From assembly GCA_000092065.1 (NCBI GenBank), contig CP000583.1: DNA of 64,000 nucleotides; one strand, 5' to 3'. The notes under the pieces are model-generated. The model was not told where the DNA came from, searched no databases, and worked only from the letters and a program-made list of their open reading frames with translations. Positions 18,971 to 27,650 of this stretch are shown here, one piece after another (position 1 is the first letter of the stretch; each line of letters opens with the position of its first letter). Both the position numbers and the translations under genes were made by a program. Origin of the DNA: Ostreococcus lucimarinus. Its lineage: Eukaryota.

Positions 18971-21355
18971 TCATGGTGCGACGCGCGCGCGATCGATCCA
19001 AGCCTCGCGCGCGCGACGCGACCGCGCGCCGACGACGCGACCGGTGTCGAAAGATGAAGATCGAAGATCTCGACGAACGCGCGGTGATGACGAACGACTG
19101 ACGCGGTGTGACGCGACGCGAACGCCGAGCAGGGGTTCGGAGACGCGCAAGAAGACGTCACGGACGCCGAGGGAGCGCTGTTTCCGATATTCGTCGTGAG
19201 CATGCTCGGGACGTTTTTGATTCCGGCGACGATCGCGCGACTGGCGAGCGCGGCGACGAAGACGGAACGCGGGAGCGGAGAGGGGAAGGGTGACGCGGCG
19301 AGCTCGAAGAAGCAGACGCAGACGATATCGACGGAGATTAGTGACGTAGAGAGTGAATGGGGAAAGGCGGCGATGGCGTCGATGAAACGGCGTAAGATGA
19401 CGACTGGGAGGCGCGTGGGCGGATTGTTTCGAGGGACCAATTTGTGGTACACGCTCGGGTGGATCGTGATGATCGCGCTGTCCGTGTACATCACGAGAAC
19501 GCCGTTACAGGAGAAACGGTTCGATCCGTACGATATCTTGGACCTGCGCGTGGGGGCGAGCACGAAGGAAATTAAGAGCGCGTACAGAAAGTTGTCGCTC
19601 AAGTATCACCCAGACAAGAACCCGGATCCCGCGGCGGCGGTTTATTTCGCCGAGTCCATCGCGCCGGCGTACAAGACGCTGACGGACGATGTCGCGCGAG
19701 AGAACTACGAAAAGTACGGTCATCCTGATGGTAAACAGAGCACCAAGCTCGGCATCGCGTTGCCCGAGCAACTTTTTGGAAAGGGTGGCATGGCGCCGGT
19801 GATGCTCATCGTGCTCGTTGTCGGAGGTATCATGCTTCCGCTTTTCATCGCTATGTGTTCGATCCGTAAAATGAACAAATTTGGTGGAAACAACGTGCTC
19901 AAGCAGACACAGGTTAATTACGCGCGCATGTTAAAGCCGGTGCTCGCGCTCTCAAAGGTTCCGGAGACGCTCGCCGTGGCGCACGAATTCATCGAGACGC
20001 CGTTCCTCGATGGACAAGATGCGGCCGTAAGCCAGCTTCTCAAAGATTACAAGAACGAGTACGAATCGAAAGATCAAAAGCTCATGAAGCGGTTGCCGAC
20101 CATCATCAAAGCACACATGTTGATCCTTACTCAGACGTCCCGGCGTGCGGCTTCGCTTCCACCTGTGCTCTCCGCGGATGCTAAAAAATTGGTGCTCACC
20201 CTGCCTCGATTGATCGAAGAGTTGCTCAAGATCGCAGCGATGCCAATCAACCGCGCCGGTCATTCGTACGCGCGACCGCAGATCAGCGTCATGGAGTTTT
20301 ACCAATGCTTCACTCAAGGCGTGCCTCTTTCTTCGCGAAAGCGAGATGAAGACGGAAACGCGAGTTTGCTTCAGCTCCCACATTTCTCCACGGAAAACCT
20401 CAACGGTGTTGCAAAAAAGTGCAAATCCCTGCACGCGCTGATGAAATTATCGAGCGAGGATCGCAAAAAGCTGTTGATTGGCGCAAGATTTTCTGAGGCC
20501 GCGACGAAGGATGTCGAGCGTCAGCTCGCGGTGATCCCACGTGTGACGACTTTTGAGGCGAAAATATCTGTCGACGACGACGACGACACCATCATGGAAG
20601 GAGATTTTGTCACCGCGAAGCTCAAGATTAAAATTGGACGATCTGGTGGACCGCTAGGTGGCGCGTTGCCTCCGTTACCGTTTTGCGCCGCTGATCGTAC
20701 AGAGGGTTGGCGCGTGTTCGTGTACGATCAATCCACGAACACCCTCTTAGCTAGCTCGACGTTAAAGCAGCGCGATGTAGAGAAGGCTGAGCGCGGGGAT
20801 GAACCTTTGGATTTGTCTGTCCAGTTCGTCGGCTTGCCGAGCGGTATGTACAACGTGGGCGTGTCGCTGATGAGCGACTATTGGATTGGTGTCGACGCCA
20901 AGGTTTCGTGCATGATGAAGGTGCTGAAGCCCACCGCGACGAACGTGGCAGCGCGCGAAGCCAAGTCCGCATCGCGTTCGGACGTCACGAAACCGAACGC
21001 TGAAGTGGAGGAGGAAGAATCGAGCGAATCGGACTATAGCGATGACGACGAGGACGATTACAGCGATGAGGACTATCCTTCGGATGAAACGGGAACGTCG
21101 GAATCCGATGATGAAGCCCGGGCTAGAATTGACGCGATGCGACGTCCTGAACAGACCAAAAACACAGTAAAGGAAGGTGCGACCGCTGCAAAACCGGCGT
21201 CAGTGCCGCAGCGAAAGACATCGACATTTGGACAGAAGGCGGCAGCGGCACGTCCCTCGATTCCAGGGCAAGCGGTTGTCCAGCAGACGCCGGCCACGGA
21301 AAAACCGGTCGTCGCCGAGGAAGTAAAGCCGGATACTGTTGATAACGTAGACTAA
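18971..21355 (+). CDS. SEC63: Translocation protein Sec63 (J-domain plus Sec63/Brl domain). Proposed exons: 18971..18973 (ATG) and 19133..21355.
   Basis: J-domain DPYDILDLRVGASTKEIKSAYRKLSLKYHPDKNP, then GHPDGKQSTKLGIALP and LLQLPHFSTENL, collinear with metazoan SEC63. Conserved N-terminal TM (GALFPIFVVSMLGTFLIPAT) lies upstream of the first in-frame ATG at 19202 with no ATG before the stop at 19109. This implies an ATG-only 5' exon at 18971 with donor GTGCGAC and branch ACTGAC at 19096. The acceptor could instead be 19129 or 19132. Confidence 0.75.
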
Positions 21356-21426: not shown

Positions 21427-22293
21427 TCACGAATGATACCAACGACCCATTCCGGATCCGCGCGCCGGGAACCACACGCCAGCGATGTTTTCGACGTATG
21501 GGTCCCAAATTAGCGCACAATCACATGACTGCACGAGCTTCAACCGCGACAGCGGACGTCGCTCGCACTCCACTCGCAACGCGTCCCAATACTTTTTCGG
21601 ATCGCTCGCCCGCGAGCGCTGCGCCGAAGAGAAATCAACCAAATTCCCGAGCACGACGACGACGACCCCTTTCGCCGCGGCGTAGTCCATCGCGAGCTTG
21701 AAATCATTATCGGACGTCACTATCAACACCACACGATCGCGACCGCGAACGATGGCTTCTATTTGCTCCTCCCGGACGTCCCAGCCCGTCGGCAGCGCCG
21801 CTCTCGCCTCGCGCGCGGCGTCCGCCCAAAACGTCGCCTCCTCGATCGCCGACGCGCGCTCTGTCGCCATCTCGGCGTTCACCCCGCTTTCATCGACCAT
21901 CAACCGTTTTTTCCCGCTGAACACGGGCGCGTCTTCGCCACCGACCGCGCGCGTCAACGCGTCGCCGAGCGCGTCGTCCGCCGCCTCCGAGCTCGACGCG
22001 CACGCCGTCACCTCAACCACCCCTTCCAGCCACTCCCCGTCCTCGGCCAACCTCGCCAGCGTCTGATCGTTCGCGTACGCGCGCACCGGGTGGTTCACGC
22101 GCCCGAACGCGGCGCCCGCGGCGAGCACGCGCTCGAACACGACCGCGGCGGTCGCGCTCTTCGGGCATAGATTATCCAAGTCCCAGTACACGTCCACCGT
22201 GCGCGTCGACGCGGCGCGCGCGAATCTCGGGCGACGCGCGCGTCCGCGCCGCGTCCTCGCGGGCGCCGCGCGCGCGCGCGCGCGCGTCGCCAT
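21427..22293 (-). CDS. NYN-domain (PIN-like RNase fold, MARF1/limkain-b1 type) protein
   Basis: ATG at 22293 (MATRARARAAPAR). Motif VDVYWDLDNLCP resembles the VFWDIENC NYN signature. A second conserved block is VLIVTSDNDFKLAMDYAAAKGVVVVVLG. Confidence 0.5.
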   Translation of the reverse strand: MATRARARAAPARTRRGRARRPRFARAASTRTVDVYWDLDNLCPKSATAAVVFERVLAAGAAFGRVNHPVRAYANDQTLARLAEDGEWLEGVVEVTACASSSEAADDALGDALTRAVGGEDAPVFSGKKRLMVDESGVNAEMATERASAIEEATFWADAAREARAALPTGWDVREEQIEAIVRGRDRVVLIVTSDNDFKLAMDYAAAKGVVVVVLGNLVDFSSAQRSRASDPKKYWDALRVECERRPLSRLKLVQSCDCALIWDPYVENIAGVWFPARGSGMGRWYHS

Positions 22294-22745
22294 GTGCGTA
22301 GAATGTACGGACTGTTTACACATACGACCGGGACATTCGGACATTTGGTCACGTTCCGTGTGTACGCTCGTCACGACACCTCGCGCGCGCGCGTCGCCCG
22401 CGCCGTCTTTACGACGCGCGACGACAGGTGCGCCGGCGACGACGACCCGACGCGACGCGCGCGCGGCGAAGACGACGCGCATCGATCGTTCGACCGCGCT
22501 TCGACGGCCCGCGACGTCGCGCGCGACGCCGAGACGCGGTCGAACGCGCGCGCGGTCGATCGCGCGCGGGCGCGCGCGACGATCGCGTCGGACGGCTCGC
22601 GTGACGCGCGCGATCGCCGCGCGATGACGCGCGCGCGATGATGCTGTCGGGAAAATCATCGTTCGCGCGCGGTCGACGCGCGGGCGGTCGATCGCGCGCG
22701 GGTGATGGGTGAAGCGCGCGCGATGGGGAGGCGCGCAAAGCCCTA

Positions 22746-22821
22746 GTGAGAAGAGGGTTGACGCGACGGAGGCGGGAAGGGCGAGGGACTGACGAATGAC
22801 GCGCGCGTTCGAAAATCACAG
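22746..22821 (+). other. Putative 5'UTR intron of the RPL12 gene (GTGAGA...ACTGAC...cacAG), ending 4 nt before the ATG
   Basis: Donor-like GTGAGA at 22746. ACTGAC branch-like motif at 22787-22792. AG at 22820-22821. ATG at 22826. Confidence 0.3.
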
Positions 22822-22825
22822 AAAG

Positions 22826-23326
22826 ATGCCGCCTAAGTTCGACCCGAACTCCGTTTTGGAGATTTTCATGCGCGCCACCGGCGGTGAAGTCGGCGCTGCG
22901 TCTTCGCTCGCGCCGAAGATCGGTCCGCTCGGTTTGTCGCCGAAGAAGGTCGGGGAAGACATCGCGAAGGAAACCGCCAAGGACTGGAAGGGTTTGCGCG
23001 TGACGGTGAAGCTCACCGTGCAAAACCGTCAAGCGAAGGTGTCTGTCGTGCCGACGGCCTCCGCCTTAGTCATTAAAGCGCTCAAGGAGCCGTTCCAAGA
23101 CCGCAAAAAGGTCAAGGGTATCTTGCACACGGGCAACTGCTCTTTGGACGACATCATCGAAGTCGCGCGCACTATGCGCCCGAGGTCTTGCGCCAAGTCG
23201 CTCGCCGGTACCGTCAAAGAAATTCTCGGTACGGCCAAGTCTGTGGGCTGCACCGTCGAGGGCGAAGACCCGTCGGACGTGCAAGAATCGATCGATTCCG
23301 GGGACATTGAAATTCCGGAAAAGTAG
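22826..23326 (+). CDS. RPL12: 60S ribosomal protein L12 (uL11)
   Basis: [48 protein letters not shown]...[30 protein letters not shown] is near-identical to eukaryotic RPL12 throughout. Confidence 0.95.
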
Positions 23327-23509: not shown

Positions 23510-25783
23510 CTATGTGTCGCTTTCGTTCGCGTCGACCAAGGACGACGACGACGACGACGAACCGTTCTTCTTCGAACCGTTCTTCTTTCCGTTCGTTTTA
23601 AAGAAGGCACCAATACTTCCATTCTTCTTCGAGCCATTCTTCTTCCGGCTTTCGGTGGTCTCTTGCGGCGTGAACGTAGTGGAAATATTCTTTTGTTGCG
23701 CCTCGAGCTCTTGCTGTTGAGCGAGAAGCCGCGACTCCATCTCTGCCATTTCTTCGATGACTGCGTTCATTTCATTTTGAATGGCTTCCATGCGAAGCCG
23801 AATGGCCTCAGAGTCTTCTTCTTTCGCCGGAGTTTGCTTGGAAATTCTAGCGAGCATGGACGACACCTTGTCCTTTGTGTTCTCGACCGTCTTTCTCATC
23901 GCCGGCGCCTTCGGAGTCGTCTTTTCTTCTCGCTCAACGTTTTCTGAAACTTGTCTTTCTTCGTCTTCGGCATCTGGCGCGTTAGGGCGAATCGCGCGCA
24001 AAAGCGTGTTCATGCCTTCATCGAAGCTCTTTCTCGTGTCCTGAGCGGCTCGGTTGACGCGATCATTGATGGACTGCATGCGTGTCTTCCCGATGCCGTT
24101 CGAGGAGAGATTCGACAGCAAGCCGTCGTACTCTTTCGACGTCTCAACGCCGCTCTCCTTGGCCGCTTTTTTCAACTCGGTCGCTGCGGAAACCATAGTC
24201 GTGCGCGCTTCGACTTCCTTGAAGCTCATGGATCGAACCAAGCCTTGTAATCCAACGCGCATCTTCTCGAGCGTCTTTTCCTCCTCTGCGATTTTCTTAG
24301 CGTCCTCACCGTCGTCTCGCATGCGCTGGATCGTCGTAGATTGTTTGGCTATGTTGACTTGCTGGCGTTGGATACGTTTTTCTAACGAAAACATATCAGT
24401 CAACATTCCAGCGGTCTCCGCTACCCAGTTATCACCGCGGCCTTCCTTCACTTCGACCTTGAGCTCGGTGGGGTCGACTTGGAAGAAGCGATGCTTGAGC
24501 GCTTGCTCTGCGCTCGGGCGCTCGCGGGCTTCTTGATCATCCTCGGCTTCGTACGGCCTCGGACGGAGTAAATCTGCCGCCAACTCCCATCCCGCGCCAT
24601 CACCAGCGTCGAGAACAGCCGTCTTCGATCGACTAAGTTGACCTTTGTTCGCTTCTCTCCACTTTTGCAAGTCGTACTTGAACTTTTTCAATCCGCGGTT
24701 GAAGCTTTGCAACCCACTGTTCGTGCGCAAGCTCGGCATGGCGAGCTGCATTAGTACGATTCCAGTGCTATACATATCGAATCGATCTGGTCTGTGTGAT
24801 AGCCATGCCGTGGTACCGGCCGCGAGCGCGACAGGTGCGAACATCTTTCGCAGATCGGGGGCGTCGTCCGTCGGAATTAAAAATTCCTCGGGAGGCGCGT
24901 ATTTCGGATCCATGATGGTTTCATCCGGGGTGAAATTCATCCCAGATCTGAAGCACGCACAAGCGCCGAGATCGATCACTTTAAATTCAGGCGTCGGCTC
25001 TCTCGCGAGCACGAGATTGTGCGGTTTCACGTCGCGATGAACCAACCCGGCGCGATGCATCGCCATCAGACTCGACAAGAGCTGCGAAATCGCGCGTTGC
25101 GTGATCTCGAGTTCCACCGCAGCGTCGCCGCGATACACGTCATCACGATCCAGTAATGCCTTCGCGAGTCCAGTGGGATAATCTGGCTGCGCGAGATATT
25201 GCGCCAACGTGCGATCGCCCTGGTATCTCCACACCAACCACAAGCCTTCCTTGCTCAACGCGTCGTTCGTCCCGGATGCCAACCAATCGTCCCGAGTCAC
25301 GCGAAACGATCCCACGAACTCCGCGCACGCCCCCTTCGCGTCTCGACTCACTCGATCGTTCATCCAAGACTCGATCTCCTGCAACTCCGCCGCGCCCTCG
25401 ACCGTGAGCTTCGGGCGCTTGAGCACCACGGCGTCGCCTTTGCGCAACCCGCGCGCGTCGTTCACCGCCACTCGTCCCTCGTACACCACCCCGAACGACC
25501 CCTCACCGATCTGACGCTCCATCTCAAAGTCACTCTTCTTATACTTGCTCCCGTTCACGACCACCAGCCCCCGTCGTCGTCGTCCCTCGCGTCTCCGCGT
25601 CGTCGCCGCGCGCGCGTCCGCTCGCCGCCCCTCGCCCCGCCGTCCACGCCCGACGCCCGCCGCATCCCGCGCGCCCTCGCGCGCGCCGAGCGACGTCGCC
25701 ATCCCACGCCGACGCTCGACCGCCTCCGCGCCTCTTCTTCGCGCCTCCCTCGGCGCTCGCGCGCGCCTCGCGTCTCGATTCAA
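23510..25783 (-). CDS. STN7: Stt7/STN7-family serine/threonine protein kinase (state-transition kinase-like) with a long charged C-terminal extension
   Basis: Kinase core GEGSFGVVYEG...HRDVKPHNLVL...DLGACACFRSGMNFTPDETIMDPKYAPPEEF...FDMYSTGIVLMQLAMPSLRTNSGLQSFNRGLKKFKYDLQKWR matches the STN7/Stt7 signature ([31 protein letters not shown]...FDIYSLGLIFLQMAFPSLR). R/A-rich presequence. About 330 aa of K/E-rich tail ending in KKNGS repeats. Confidence 0.8.
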   Translation of the reverse strand: MNRDARRARAPREARRRGAEAVERRRGMATSLGAREGARDAAGVGRGRRGEGRRADARAATTRRREGRRRRGLVVVNGSKYKKSDFEMERQIGEGSFGVVYEGRVAVNDARGLRKGDAVVLKRPKLTVEGAAELQEIESWMNDRVSRDAKGACAEFVGSFRVTRDDWLASGTNDALSKEGLWLVWRYQGDRTLAQYLAQPDYPTGLAKALLDRDDVYRGDAAVELEITQRAISQLLSSLMAMHRAGLVHRDVKPHNLVLAREPTPEFKVIDLGACACFRSGMNFTPDETIMDPKYAPPEEFLIPTDDAPDLRKMFAPVALAAGTTAWLSHRPDRFDMYSTGIVLMQLAMPSLRTNSGLQSFNRGLKKFKYDLQKWREANKGQLSRSKTAVLDAGDGAGWELAADLLRPRPYEAEDDQEARERPSAEQALKHRFFQVDPTELKVEVKEGRGDNWVAETAGMLTDMFSLEKRIQRQQVNIAKQSTTIQRMRDDGEDAKKIAEEEKTLEKMRVGLQGLVRSMSFKEVEARTTMVSAATELKKAAKESGVETSKEYDGLLSNLSSNGIGKTRMQSINDRVNRAAQDTRKSFDEGMNTLLRAIRPNAPDAEDEERQVSENVEREEKTTPKAPAMRKTVENTKDKVSSMLARISKQTPAKEEDSEAIRLRMEAIQNEMNAVIEEMAEMESRLLAQQQELEAQQKNISTTFTPQETTESRKKNGSKKNGSIGAFFKTNGKKNGSKKNGSSSSSSSLVDANESDT
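23520..23660. repeat. Short direct repeats (ccgttcttcttcgaaccgttcttctttccgttc...) encoding KKNGS/KNGSKKNGS units at the 3' end of the kinase gene
   Basis: Direct repetition of ttcttc/ccgttc blocks is visible on the + strand. Translated on the minus strand this gives NGSKKNGSIGAFFKTNGKKNGSKKNGSS. Confidence 0.6.
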
Positions 25784-26324
25784 ATATCTTCGAGCTCGTT
25801 ATCCGACGCTTTCGGGTCGTCTTCGCGCCGCTCGCGCGCCCCTCTTCGCCGTCGCGCGCGCGTTCGCGTCGTTTTCGAATCCGCTTCCGTTTCGCGCGTC
25901 GTCGACGCGCTTCCGCGTCGACGCGCGTCCGCGTCCGCGTCGCGATGTCGCGTCGATCGCCCGCGGGATGGGTCGCCGTCCCGCGACCCCCTCGCGTGGA
26001 GTCGCGACCCGTCGATGGGTGTCACGAGACCGGTCGGTCGTCACACACGGACTAACCGCGTCGTAAGGTGCGGAATAAAGTACGGCGTTTCATACACGAT
26101 CGCGCGGTCCGCGACGTCGCGACGTCGCGGTCGCGCGCGCGAGACGCGCGCGCGCGCGCGCGACGCGCGACGCGAGAGACGCGACCGTTCTCGACGCGCG
26201 CGGATTCGCAGAGACGATCGCGGAACCGGCGCGCGACCGCGAAGAGGGAAGAAGGTCTCGAGACGAACGAACGCACGACTCGGCGTCGCGAAGAACGACG
26301 GACGACGGCGCGCGCGCGCGCGCG

Positions 26325-27650
26325 ATGGCGGACGCGCGACGGAGGCGCGATGTATGCGCGACGACGCGCGCGGGCGGGCGACGCGAACGACGCGGCGGGC
26401 GGTCAGACGGCCGGGAATGGGTCGGGACGGCGTCGGGACGACGACGCGCGACGCGCGAGGACGACGCGGAGACGCGGACGCGAACGCGAGGATGGGTGAT
26501 TCGCGACGCGCGCGCGCGTGCGACGGCGGTGACGTCGTCGACGTCGATGGGGACGGCGGGAGGGGCGGGCGCGGGCGCGGGCGGGCGGCGGTGGAGGTTT
26601 TTGGCGGCGGCGGCGACGCGCGCGGCGGCGACGAAGGCGGCGACGGGACGCGGCGCGACGCGCAAGGCGAACGGGGGGGGCGCGAAGCCGCGGCGGCGAG
26701 AGAAAAAGTTGTCGAGGAAGGAAGAGGCGGGTCGGCGGTTGGCGAGCGGGACGCTGGCGACGGTGTGCGTGCGCACGGTGCTCGCGCCGCTGGAGAGGGT
26801 GAAGATTGAGTACCTGTTGAATCGCAGCGCGCTCAAGCTCGAGGCCATGGTGGGGGGGATATTGCGCACCGAAGGCGCGCTCGGATTTTGGAAAGGGAAC
26901 ATGCTCAACATCGCGCGCACGGCGCCGTTCAAGGCGATCAACTTTTGTGCGTTCGACACGTATCGCGAAATCGTCAACCGCACTTTTCCCGAGGGCAGCG
27001 ACGCGAGGAAAATCGGCTTGGTGTGCGCTGGCGCGGGGGCGGGAATGACGGCGGTCGTCACGTGTTTTCCCATGGATGTTTTGCGCACGAGACTGCTCAC
27101 GACGGGTGGGAAGGAAAAGTACGGCTCGTTCTTCGCGTGCGTGAAGATGATGTACCGACAAGAGGGCGCGAGCACGTTTTATCGCGGCATCACGCCGGCG
27201 CTCGTGTCCATGGTTCCGAACGCGGCGGTGTATTATAGCGTCTACGACGGGTTAAAGAACCGCAGATTAGCCCAACTCAACGCAGAGCTCGCGGCGACGC
27301 GGAAGAAGAGCGGATCGAAACAAGCAGAGGAAAATTCTGTGAAAAACATCGAGCAAAAGAACATGATGCTGTACGGCGCCGTCGCGGGCGTCGCCTCGGA
27401 AGCGTCGACGTACCCATTCGAGGTCATCCGTCGGCGAATGCAAATGCAAAGCGGTCGATCGTCCACCGCCATGGTGTTCGGTCGAAAAGCGCTCCTGAGT
27501 ATGGCCACGACGCTTCGCTCCGTCGCGCGCGAATCCGGCTTGAAGAGCCTCTACGCCGGTCTCGGTCCGAGTTGCGTGCAAGTTCTCCCATCCGCCGCGC
27601 TCGGGTACTACACGTACGAGATGTTCAAGCTGCTGTTAGAAGTAGATTAA
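26325..27650 (+). CDS. Mitochondrial carrier family (MCF/SLC25) transporter, possibly an adenine-nucleotide or Brittle-1-type. The real start may be the internal ATG at 26547.
   Basis: Three carrier repeats with signatures PLERVKIEYLL, PMDVLRTRL and PFEVIRRRMQ, and six hydrophobic helices. R/G-rich N-terminal leader. Confidence 0.8.
   Translation: MADARRRRDVCATTRAGGRRERRGGRSDGREWVGTASGRRRATREDDAETRTRTRGWVIRDARARATAVTSSTSMGTAGGAGAGAGGRRWRFLAAAATRAAATKAATGRGATRKANGGGAKPRRREKKLSRKEEAGRRLASGTLATVCVRTVLAPLERVKIEYLLNRSALKLEAMVGGILRTEGALGFWKGNMLNIARTAPFKAINFCAFDTYREIVNRTFPEGSDARKIGLVCAGAGAGMTAVVTCFPMDVLRTRLLTTGGKEKYGSFFACVKMMYRQEGASTFYRGITPALVSMVPNAAVYYSVYDGLKNRRLAQLNAELAATRKKSGSKQAEENSVKNIEQKNMMLYGAVAGVASEASTYPFEVIRRRMQMQSGRSSTAMVFGRKALLSMATTLRSVARESGLKSLYAGLGPSCVQVLPSAALGYYTYEMFKLLLEVD

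What the first reader, a model, noticed from the sequence alone, without database searches (positions are those of the whole stretch)
23510..24600. Stt7/STN7-like kinase carrying a roughly 330-aa charged, repeat-bearing C-terminal extension and no obvious N-terminal TM helix
The kinase core matches the state-transition kinase signature. The usual single N-terminal TM helix is not evident between the presequence and the kinase domain (GLVVVNGSKYKKSDFEMERQIGEG follows the presequence directly). Instead there is a long K/E-rich, predicted coiled-coil tail ending in KKNGS tandem repeats that are encoded by DNA-level direct repeats. This suggests a divergent regulatory or anchoring mode for an LHCII-kinase homolog.
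Basis: partly seen in the sequence, partly recalled or inferred. Interest (0 to 1): 0.5.

Follow-up and report, generated by a model that had tools for sequence, protein, structure and literature searches.

The report
Membrane-anchorless STN-family kinase paralog with helical tail
This green-alga gene encodes a relative of the thylakoid kinases STN7 and STN8 that has no membrane anchor and carries a conserved helical tail; it is an old, little-studied paralog, not the alga's state-transition kinase, and the KKNGS repeats are species-specific filler.

Summary
One intron-less minus-strand CDS (25702..23510, 730 aa) encodes three parts:
- a basic presequence of about 50 aa;
- an intact protein-kinase domain whose best solved relative is the Micromonas "Stt7 homolog" 4ix3;
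- a 321-aa charged, mostly helical tail ending in four KKNGS units.

No transmembrane-like segment exists in the protein, or in 1.6 kb upstream.

The protein belongs to the STN superfamily. In a bootstrapped NJ tree it falls outside the clade (93%) that unites all STN7 and STN8 sequences, every one of which has an N-terminal hydrophobic helix. Profile scoring agrees. Ostreococcus-like algae carry a separate canonical STN7 with the C-x4-C motif and a TM helix.

The window protein sits in a prasinophyte clade of anchorless, long-tailed kinases. Its first tail module is homologous to one in long, anchorless core-chlorophyte STN-like proteins.

AlphaFold predicts two confident tail elements: a helical hairpin (423-516) and a later helix (631-676). 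The KKNGS region is disordered, fixed at four copies within the population and unconserved between species.

Extra STN paralogs in Ostreococcus were noted in 2012 and remain uncharacterised. Interest is modest.

The parts
23510..25702 (-). Complete intron-less CDS of the STN-like kinase (730 aa, TAG stop at 23510-23512)
   Evidence: ORF listing; translation; collinear alignment with 22 orthologs; a 100% identical 730-aa protein is present in public collections (P0001).
25559..25702 (-). N-terminal presequence (aa 1-48). It is Arg/Gly/Ala-rich, unconserved and disordered. It is presumed to be a cleavable organellar targeting peptide. It contains no Cys pair and no hydrophobic helix.
   Evidence: pLDDT about 33. 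Orthologs have equally short (35-60 aa), basic, acid-poor, fast-evolving N-termini. Maximum hydropathy of the N-terminal extension is -0.25. A 23-bp imperfect DNA repeat at 25567-25642 lies inside it.
24476..25540 (-). Protein-kinase domain of the STN type (aa 55-409), with all catalytic motifs
   Evidence: Pfam Pkinase; MsStt7d 4ix3 E 3.5e-50 and Foldseek E 4e-17; motifs located; confident AF2 model, pLDDT 75-95.
24155..24436 (-). Tail block 1: a conserved helical hairpin directly after the kinase domain (aa 423-516; helices 423/426-464 and 468-516)
   Evidence: pLDDT 74-86 in the full model and 88-96 in the tail-only model. Invariant L440, Q454, L478, G484, L485, Q486, R490. Homologous to a module in core-chlorophyte long STN-like proteins: hhalign P 94.9%, E 4.6e-8, against a reversed control of 2.7e-3; BLASTP E 2e-6 to Chlamydomonas incerta P0252 and 1e-4 to Coccomyxa P0080.
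23813..24154 (-). Variable, mostly low-confidence linker (aa 517-630), containing weakly predicted helices 523-533, 540-571 and 607-620
   Evidence: pLDDT mostly below 50. Length and sequence vary between orthologs.
23675..23812 (-). Tail block 2: a conserved amphipathic helix of about 46 residues (aa 631-676; 'EAIRLRMEAIQNEMNAVIEEMAEMESRLLAQQQELEAQQ')
   Evidence: pLDDT about 70 in the full model and 83-92 in the tail-only model. Invariant R635, M638, E644, L659 across Mamiellophyceae and Pyramimonas. Heptad bias p 0.02.
23513..23674 (-). Disordered low-complexity C-terminus (aa 677-730), including 4 x KKNGS and a Ser7 run
   Evidence: pLDDT below 50. KKNGS units lie at 23630-23644, 23615-23629, 23573-23587 and 23558-23572. 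TRF finds a 15-bp x2 repeat at 100% and a (GAC)n run. The region is not conserved between species. It is invariant within the population.

Best explanation
The gene encodes a nuclear-encoded, organelle-targeted Ser/Thr kinase of the STN (Stt7/STN7-Stl1/STN8) superfamily. The target organelle is most likely the chloroplast. The kinase is soluble or only peripherally attached.

**Shown**
- It is not the ortholog of STN7 or of STN8. It belongs to a separate, old branch of long-tailed STN-like kinases.
- The catalytic core is intact.
- The N-terminal lumenal Cys pair and TM helix are absent. In Stt7/STN7 these tether the kinase in the thylakoid membrane next to cytochrome b6f.
- The lineage keeps a separate canonical STN7.
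- Two tail modules are conserved across Mamiellophyceae and Pyramimonas.
- The first module is shared with anchorless long STN-like proteins of core chlorophytes.

**Inferred**
- Without the anchor, the kinase cannot be switched on by the membrane-embedded b6f/plastoquinone route used by Stt7/STN7.
- The helical hairpin (aa 423-516) and the later helix (aa 631-676) act as a coiled-coil or helical-bundle module. Whether the two elements pack together was not inspected. The module would oligomerise the kinase or dock it onto a partner or membrane surface, and may also restrain or position the catalytic domain.
- The flexible linker and the KKNGS/poly-Ser end are slippage-generated, fast-evolving spacer sequence with no specific role.
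For: - **Family.** Best PDB sequence and fold hit is 4ix3. 175 library representatives at E<=1e-30 are all STN-type.
- **Tree.** STN7+STN8 form a 93% clade that excludes the window protein. Mamiellophyceae orthologs group at 100%, and at 75-80% with P0069 and Pyramimonas.
- **Profile scoring.** 377 and 369 bits for the long clades, 339 for the MsStt7d type, 331 and 303 for STN8 types, 249-293 for STN7 types.
- **Anchors.** Nearly every full-length member of the STN7/STN8 clade has an N-terminal segment with KD about 1.3-2.4. The prasinophyte and core-chlorophyte long clades do not. The window protein has none, and neither does its upstream DNA.
- **Separate STN7.** P0109 carries C-x4-C and a TM helix.
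- **Tail conservation and structure.**
- **Block-1 homology to core chlorophytes.**
- **Presequence-like N-termini.**
- **Transcribed as one ORF.** Orthologs P0008 and P0067 come from transcriptomes (MMETSP).
- **Literature.** Extra STN7/STN8 duplicates in O. lucimarinus, Chlamydomonas and Selaginella were noted as absent from higher plants (PMC3525998). Micromonas commoda has STN7, STN8 and two paralogs (PMC10735309). An uncharacterised 'STN-like' gene exists in Physcomitrium (PMC9434285).
Against: - No experimental data bear on activity, localisation or substrates.
- The tree is distance-based (NJ, Kimura correction) and has no outgroup. Backbone nodes joining the long clades have only 48-56% support, so the grouping of prasinophyte, core-chlorophyte and streptophyte long forms into one orthogroup is tentative.
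- Tail homology to the streptophyte long forms is not detectable (E 0.15).
- Block 2 similarity to chlorophyte C-terminal helices is no better than a reversed-sequence control.
- The presequence has 5 acidic residues in 51, which is unusual for a transit peptide.
- Tikkanen et al. 2012 predicted the extra algal paralogs to be mitochondrial.
- The tail fold has no significant PDB match, so the oligomerisation or docking role is inference from helicity and heptad bias only.
- I could not establish whether Chlamydomonas Stl1 (Cre12.g483650) belongs to the long core-chlorophyte clade. If it does, this protein would be better described as Stl1-like.
Confidence: 0.6

Rival explanations
1. It is the functional state-transition (LHCII) kinase of this alga. 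On this view it has swapped the N-terminal TM anchor for a C-terminal coiled-coil and KKNGS anchoring or regulatory device.
For: The kinase domain is of the STN type and its best solved relative is named a 'Stt7 homolog'. The tail is conserved.
Against: It lies outside the STN7 clade and gets its lowest profile scores against STN7-type HMMs. It has no Cys pair and no TM helix. A canonical STN7 ortholog with both features exists in Ostreococcus-like algae. 4ix3 itself is not in the STN7 clade. The KKNGS region is unconserved and disordered.
Confidence: 0.06
2. It is the Stl1/STN8-equivalent kinase of prasinophytes, acting on PSII core and thylakoid proteins. On this view the 'long' chlorophyte forms are simply the algal version of STN8.
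For: Plant STN8 is closer to it than plant STN7: 38-41% against 33-35% identity, and 303-331 against 249-293 bits. NCBI labels the Coccomyxa long form 'probable STN8 at N-terminal half' and Selaginella P0083 'STN8'. No core-chlorophyte sequence was identified among the TM-bearing algal STN8-like representatives I looked up.
Against: The STN8 clade, including Chloropicon 'STN8', Pedinophyceae and cryptophyte sequences, groups with STN7 at 93% to the exclusion of this protein. Marine, high-GC TM-bearing STN8-like proteins also exist (P0324, P0327). M. commoda is reported to have STN8 in addition to paralogs. Selaginella has both a short STN8 (P0104) and a long form (P0083), so the split is old.
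Confidence: 0.15
3. It is the same paralog class as in the best explanation, but it is targeted to mitochondria rather than chloroplasts and is therefore unrelated to thylakoid regulation.
For: Tikkanen et al. [quoted passage not shown] The presequence is very Arg-rich, with 15 R+K in 51 residues.
Against: The paper does not say which of the two extra Ostreococcus paralogs was meant. Targeting predictors are unreliable for prasinophytes (my own knowledge). Orthologs end the presequence with V-R-V-x-A-like motifs typical of stromal processing sites (my reading). No predictor could be run here.
Confidence: 0.2
4. It is a gene-model artefact: a kinase gene fused in silico to a downstream coiled-coil gene, or a pseudogene.
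For: None beyond the unusual length. Some database entries are tail-only fragments annotated as coiled-coil proteins (P0383 'SlyX'; P0105-P0115).
Against: It is a single uninterrupted ORF. The architecture is identical in more than 20 orthologs, including transcriptome-derived ones. The tail-only entries are truncated calls of the same Micromonas gene. Catalytic motifs are intact.
Confidence: 0.02

Closest known systems
Stt7 (Chlamydomonas) / STN7 (Arabidopsis) LHCII state-transition kinase
   Same: Same kinase superfamily, with about 33-35% identity in the catalytic domain. Same overall kinase fold with STN-type insertions. Nuclear-encoded with an N-terminal presequence.
   Different: It lacks the lumenal C-x4-C pair and the single TM helix. 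It lies outside the STN7 clade. The STN7 C-terminal extension of about 100-190 aa shows no similarity to this tail (hhalign E 0.52). A true STN7 ortholog exists separately in the lineage.
Stl1 / STN8 PSII-core kinase
   Same: Closer than STN7 by identity and profile score.
   Different: STN8-clade proteins have an N-terminal hydrophobic helix and almost no C-terminal extension (0-41 aa in nearly all members). This protein has no helix and a 321-aa tail, and it is excluded from the 93% STN7+STN8 clade. I could not test where Chlamydomonas Stl1 itself falls.
MsStt7d (PDB 4ix3-4ix6), 'Stt7 homolog' from Micromonas sp. RCC299
   Same: It is the best solved relative, at about 37% identity over the whole kinase domain. 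It is also anchorless.
   Different: It belongs to a different clade (76% support). That clade has N-terminal PDZ-like or FHA extensions and no C-terminal tail.
Long STN-like proteins of core chlorophytes (e.g. Coccomyxa 'probable STN8 at N-terminal half' P0080; Chlamydomonas incerta KAG2422260 P0252)
   Same: They give the highest profile score (377 bits). They have no N-terminal TM helix and a short presequence. They carry a homologous post-kinase helical module. They also have a C-terminal amphipathic helix at the very end of the tail, but this is a positional similarity only.
   Different: Those proteins are 600-1450 aa long and carry FF domains. In C. incerta the block-1 module is duplicated. 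The window protein has no FF domain.
Long STN-like proteins of non-seed streptophytes (Sphagnum P0076, Ceratopteris P0082, Selaginella P0083, Klebsormidium P0090 and P0092). These probably correspond to the uncharacterised 'STN-like' Pp3c10_6850 of Physcomitrium, which is my inference and was not tested.
   Same: The kinase domain scores 369 bits against their profile, far above STN7 or STN8. They have a long C-terminal extension and did not appear among seed-plant hits.
   Different: They keep an N-terminal hydrophobic helix and have additional hydrophobic segments in the tail (KD 1.6-2.1). No tail homology is detectable.

Membership tests
STN kinase superfamily (Stt7/STN7, Stl1/STN8 and relatives) | Catalytic domain more similar to STN-type kinases than to any other kinase group | tested here: met
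   4ix3 E 3.5e-50 against the next PDB kinase at 4.8e-07. The top 150 library representatives are all STN-type. Foldseek top hit is 4ix3.
STN kinase superfamily (Stt7/STN7, Stl1/STN8 and relatives) | Intact catalytic motifs (Gly-loop, beta3 Lys, HRD..N, DxG, APE) | tested here: met
   GEGSFG 66, VVLK 92-95, HRDVKPHN 222, DLG 244, APPEE 269. All are invariant in orthologs.
Stt7/STN7 orthogroup | Two conserved N-terminal (lumenal) cysteines, C-x4-C | tested here: not met
   There is no Cys in aa 1-125 of the protein. The canonical ortholog P0109 has 'LPCAVQNCGD'.
Stt7/STN7 orthogroup | Single TM helix between the N-terminal region and the kinase domain | tested here: not met
   Maximum KD-19 of the N-terminal extension is -0.25, against 1.4-2.4 in STN7-clade members. 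No hydrophobic segment exists in 1.6 kb upstream.
Stt7/STN7 orthogroup | Phylogenetic placement within the STN7 clade | tested here: not met
   NJ tree. HMM scores of 249-293 bits are the lowest of all clades.
Stt7/STN7 orthogroup | Cytochrome b6f-dependent activation and LHCII phosphorylation | not testable with these tools
   Requires genetics and biochemistry.
Stl1/STN8 orthogroup | Placement within the STN8 clade, with an N-terminal hydrophobic helix and a minimal C-terminus | tested here: not met
   It is excluded from the 93% STN7+STN8 clade. STN8-clade C-extensions are 0-41 aa in nearly all members, against 321 aa here. HMM scores are 303-331 bits, against 369-377 for the long clades.
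Stl1/STN8 orthogroup | Orthology to Chlamydomonas Stl1 (Cre12.g483650) | not tested
   The C. reinhardtii sequence could not be retrieved (one search returned no C. reinhardtii entry). Only the gene identifier was confirmed.
Long anchorless STN-like kinases of Chlorophyta (unnamed) | Kinase domain closest to this clade, with no N-terminal TM helix and only a short presequence | tested here: met
   377 bits, the best of eight clade profiles. N-terminal extensions and hydropathy.
Long anchorless STN-like kinases of Chlorophyta (unnamed) | Conserved post-kinase helical module ('[LF]-x-LE-x-[RK]-I-x-x-Q ... Q-[ST]-T ... L-[ED]-K-M ... L-x-G-L') | tested here: met
   hhalign P 94.9%, E 4.6e-8 over 74 columns, against a reversed control of 2.7e-3. 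BLASTP E 2e-6 and 1e-4.
Long anchorless STN-like kinases of Chlorophyta (unnamed) | FF domain(s) in the tail | tested here: not met
   There is no FF hit in the window protein at E<=0.01. FF is present in P0080 and P0252. FF may therefore be a core-chlorophyte addition rather than a defining feature.
Coiled-coil proteins (generic) | Long helices with heptad a/d hydrophobic periodicity | tested here: inconclusive
   Four long helices are predicted. Heptad bias is significant for two of them (p 0.0075 and 0.02) and not for the other two. No dedicated coiled-coil predictor or multimer model was available.

The most novel reading that the evidence does not exclude
The protein represents a third, ancient branch of the STN kinase family. 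This branch is present across Chlorophyta, and possibly in non-seed streptophytes, and is lost in seed plants. It works as a soluble stromal kinase, recruited or regulated through a dedicated helical-bundle module rather than through cytochrome b6f. It would then be a thylakoid or stromal phosphorylation pathway independent of the STN7 and STN8 systems. That could account for 'orphan' phosphorylations such as the unidentified second LHCB6 kinase discussed for Physcomitrium.
Probability: 0.3. Interest if true: 0.55.

Novelty: new variant of a known kind. Interest (0 to 1): 0.33.

Why it matters
Thylakoid phosphorylation is usually discussed as a two-kinase system of STN7 and STN8. This gene belongs to a further, anchorless branch that is conserved across marine picoalgae of global importance, and no function has been assigned to it.

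It cannot sense the plastoquinone pool and cytochrome b6f in the way Stt7/STN7 does. If it is chloroplast-located, it would therefore mark a separately wired phosphorylation input.

The analysis also gives a practical caution. The only crystal structure used as a model for Stt7/STN7 (4ix3) comes from yet another anchorless paralog clade, not from the true Stt7 ortholog of Micromonas.

For genome annotation, the point is that 'Stt7/STN7-like' or 'STN8' labels on such genes should not be read as orthology.

Tried and rejected
- **Hidden upstream TM exon.** Three-frame translation of the minus strand from 25561 to 27300 found no stop-free 19-residue window with KD above 1.4. Rejected.
- **Tail homology to streptophyte long forms and to the STN7 C-terminal extension.** hhalign E 0.15 and 0.52, no better than reversed controls. 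No evidence.
- **Block 2 homology to the C-terminal helix of core-chlorophyte long forms.** Forward E 4.9e-4, but the reversed control scored better (9e-6). I treat this as coiled-coil composition and do not use it as evidence.
- **Known domain in the tail.** Pfam gives only a sub-threshold ABC_tran_Xtn coiled-coil hit. Foldseek of the tail-only model against the PDB gives no hit at E<=1e-3, only generic helical bundles.
- **KKNGS copy-number variation between strains.** All 14 listed environmental variants have four copies; the 11 full-length ones are at least 99.6% identical to the window protein. No variation was seen.
- **Naming the Chlamydomonas reinhardtii ortholog or placing Stl1.** The third homolog search, seeded with the C. 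incerta kinase domain, returned no C. reinhardtii entry. The papers gave only the gene identifier. The AFDB50 fold library was unavailable. Unresolved.
- **Literature searches.** Queries on 'STN8-like/STL2' and 'MsStt7d' were uninformative. The supplement of PMC10735309 with the STN phylogeny is not held.
- **Second STN-like gene in the window.** tblastn finds only this locus.
Full report
**1. What is in the sequence**

The finding lies in one long minus-strand ORF (23510..25783).
- The first ATG is at 25702. This gives a 730-aa protein ending at a TAG at 23510-23512.
- An identical 730-aa protein is already in public collections from marine metagenomes (P0001, annotated only as 'serine/threonine protein kinase').
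- The neighbours are ordinary eukaryotic nuclear genes:
  - Sec63/DnaJ at 19196-21355;
  - ribosomal protein uL11 at 22796-23326;
  - a divergently transcribed mitochondrial carrier at 26325-27650.
- The closest named relatives are Ostreococcus proteins at about 73% identity, then Micromonas at about 49%. I therefore take the window to come from an Ostreococcus-like member of the Mamiellophyceae. This is an inference.

**2. Checking the observation**

- **Kinase domain.** It spans aa 55-409 and is intact. GEGSFG, the beta3 lysine in VVLK, HRDVKPHN, DLG and APPEE are all present.
- **Best solved relative.** By sequence it is MsStt7d (PDB 4ix3, E 3.5e-50). The next kinase in the PDB scores 4.8e-07. 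An AlphaFold2 model built on 23 orthologs also hits 4ix3 first.
- **No TM helix.**
  - The best 19-residue Kyte-Doolittle window in the whole protein reaches 0.84.
  - Nothing hydrophobic is encoded in any minus-strand frame for 1.6 kb upstream.
  - All aligned orthologs have the same layout: 35-60 basic, poorly conserved residues and then the kinase domain.
- **Tail.** It spans aa 410-730 and is 34% charged (E 12%, K 10%). Predicted helices are 426-464, 468-516, 540-571 and 631-676.
- **Tail modelled alone.** The hairpin 423-516 reaches pLDDT 88-96 and helix 631-676 reaches 83-92. The regions 572-630 and 677-730 stay disordered.
- **KKNGS.** It occurs four times, in a 2+2 arrangement. Two units are encoded by identical 15-mers.

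**3. What it is**

I collected the family in three ways:
- a word-seeded search with the window protein;
- a search seeded with an Ostreococcus-like protein carrying the STN7 hallmarks (P0109);
- an exhaustive HMMER scan of 1.84 billion cluster representatives, which gave 175 hits at E<=1e-30.

From these I took 118 non-redundant, near-complete kinase domains (318 trimmed columns). I built a neighbour-joining tree with 100 bootstraps and annotated each leaf with the length and hydropathy of its flanks.

Five groups emerge.

| Group | Bootstrap support | N-terminal side | C-terminal side | Examples |
|---|---|---|---|---|
| (i) STN7 + STN8 | 93% | Almost every full-length member has a hydrophobic N-terminal segment (KD about 1.3-2.4) | STN8-type tails are 0-41 aa in nearly all members; STN7-type are about 100-190 aa | Named plant STN7 and STN8, Chloropicon 'STN8', cryptophyte sequences |
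| (ii) Non-seed streptophyte 'long' | 94% | N-terminal helix | 195-561 aa tail containing hydrophobic segments | Sphagnum, Ceratopteris, Selaginella, Klebsormidium |
| (iii) Prasinophyte | Mamiellophyceae 100%; 75-80% with P0069 and Pyramimonas | No anchor | 290-367 aa hydrophilic tail | The window protein |
| (iv) Core-chlorophyte 'long' | 74% | No anchor | Tails up to 1121 aa, with FF domains | Coccomyxa P0080, C. incerta P0252 |
| (v) MsStt7d type | 76% | PDZ-like or FHA extensions, no TM helix | No tail | 4ix3, P0338, Mesostigma P0103 |

The position of the root does not matter here. The 93% bipartition means the window protein is in neither the STN7 nor the STN8 clade.

An independent test agrees. 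Clade-specific HMMs, built without any group (iii) sequence, score the window kinase domain as follows:

| Clade profile | Bits |
|---|---|
| Core-chlorophyte long | 377 |
| Streptophyte long | 369 |
| MsStt7d type | 339 |
| Algal STN8-like | 331 |
| Plant STN8 | 303 |
| STN7 types | 249-293 |

The lineage also has its own canonical STN7. P0109 and its relatives carry the C-x4-C pair ('LPCAVQNCGD') and a TM helix, and they are 47-50% identical to plant STN7 over about 76-87% of the query.

This fits the literature.
- Micromonas commoda is reported to have STN7, STN8 and two paralogs (PMC10735309).
- Tikkanen et al. 2012 noted extra STN7/STN8 duplicates in O. lucimarinus, C. reinhardtii and Selaginella that are absent from higher plants (PMC3525998).
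- Physcomitrium has an uncharacterised 'STN-like' gene (PMC9434285).

**4. The tail**

Alignment of 23 orthologs shows two conserved blocks separated by a variable linker.

*Block 1* spans aa about 432-510 ('DMFSLEKRIQRQQ..IAKQSTTIQR...EEEKTLEKMRVGLQGLVRS').
- It is homologous to a module placed at a comparable position, downstream of the kinase domain, in core-chlorophyte long forms.
  - hhalign gives probability 94.9% and E 4.6e-8 over 74 columns. The reversed-sequence control gives E 2.7e-3.
  - BLASTP gives E 2e-6 to C. incerta and 1e-4 to Coccomyxa.
- In C. incerta the module occurs twice.

*Block 2* spans aa 631-676.
- It is conserved within prasinophytes.
- Its resemblance to the terminal helix of chlorophyte proteins is no better than a reversed control, so I do not count it.

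No tail similarity to streptophyte long forms or to the STN7 C-terminal extension was found. The tail model has no significant PDB neighbour, only generic helical bundles and hairpins.

The KKNGS and poly-Ser end is a low-complexity region of the N/G/K/S/T type.
- It differs in every Ostreococcus-like ortholog.
- In Micromonas it is replaced by a different conserved C-terminal helix.
- Within the population it is fixed at four copies (14 variants).

**5. How it most likely works**

*Shown*
- The catalytic core is intact.
- The membrane anchor and Cys pair are absent.
- Two tail modules are conserved and predicted to be helical.
- A separate canonical STN7 is present in the lineage.

*Inferred*
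- After import via the basic presequence, the mature protein is a soluble or peripheral kinase. I favour the chloroplast on family grounds and on the V-R-V-x-A-like ends of the ortholog presequences. Mitochondria remain possible, following the 2012 prediction.
- Stt7/STN7 depends on its transmembrane and lumenal part for activation at cytochrome b6f (established knowledge, restated in PMC12661317). This kinase cannot use that switch.
- The conserved hairpin and helix most plausibly form a coiled-coil or helical-bundle module that dimerises the kinase, docks it to a partner or surface, or folds back on the catalytic domain. Whether hairpin and helix contact each other was not inspected.
- The linker and the KKNGS end are flexible spacer sequence.

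Confidence in the classification is high, about 0.85. Confidence in the mechanism is modest, about 0.4.

**6. Comparison and novelty**

It works like an STN-family kinase, and it is a member of that superfamily. It fails the defining features of both the STN7 orthogroup (Cys pair, TM helix, clade) and the STN8 orthogroup (TM helix, clade).

Its nearest kin are the anchorless long STN-like proteins of core chlorophytes, but it lacks their FF domains.

One point stays open. I could not place Chlamydomonas Stl1. If Stl1 proves to be a long core-chlorophyte form, this protein would be 'Stl1-like', and the equation Stl1 = STN8 would itself need revisiting.

Extra paralogs of this kind have been mentioned in the literature but not characterised. 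I therefore rate it a new variant of a known kind, of modest interest.

**7. Limits**

- The tree is distance-based and has no outgroup.
- Backbone nodes linking groups (ii) to (v) have only 48-56% support.
- No targeting predictor, coiled-coil predictor or multimer modelling was available.
- AlphaFold contacts could not be inspected.
- The organism assignment is inferred from best hits.

Noticed in passing
not in the window; PDB 4ix3 / P0338 / P0103: The crystal structure widely used as the 'Stt7 homolog' (MsStt7d, 4ix3) is not in the STN7/Stt7 clade in my tree. It groups (76%) with anchorless proteins that have N-terminal extensions and no C-terminal tail. Examples are P0338 (66% identical; weak PDZ hit at E 1.9e-4, just under the Pfam cut-off) and FHA-bearing Mesostigma P0103. 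The true Mamiellophyceae STN7 orthologs are the P0109 type, with C-x4-C and a TM helix.
   Followed up: partly
not in the window; P0076, P0082, P0083, P0084, P0089, P0090, P0092, P0094: A well-supported (94%) clade of long STN-like kinases exists in Klebsormidium, a Closterium species, bryophytes, a fern and Selaginella. Members have an N-terminal hydrophobic helix plus extra hydrophobic segments in a 195-561 aa tail. No seed-plant member appeared among the hits. Selaginella has both this form and a short STN8.
   Followed up: partly
not in the window; P0080 (Coccomyxa), P0252 (Chlamydomonas incerta KAG2422260): Core-chlorophyte long STN-like kinases carry FF domains (E 4e-15 to 5e-17). FF is a module best known from nuclear proteins, so it is odd in a presumed organellar kinase. 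In P0252 the post-kinase 'LFDLE.KI..Q' module is duplicated.
   Followed up: partly
window 25567-25642 (-): An imperfect 23-bp tandem repeat (3.3 copies, 72% matches) lies inside the coding region of the Arg/Gly-rich presequence. Part of the presequence therefore seems to have grown by DNA slippage, like the KKNGS end.
   Followed up: no
window 23541-23560 (-): A (GAC)6.7 microsatellite on the plus strand encodes the Ser7 run directly after the last KKNGS unit.
   Followed up: no
window 21427-22659 (-): A 410-aa ORF between the Sec63-like gene and the uL11 gene has no Pfam match at E<=0.001. Its N-terminal half is extremely Arg/Ala-rich. It was not examined further.
   Followed up: no
window 25703-26324: Only about 620 bp separate the kinase start codon from the ORF start of the divergently oriented mitochondrial-carrier gene. 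This suggests a shared bidirectional promoter region, as is typical of compact Mamiellophyceae genomes.
   Followed up: no
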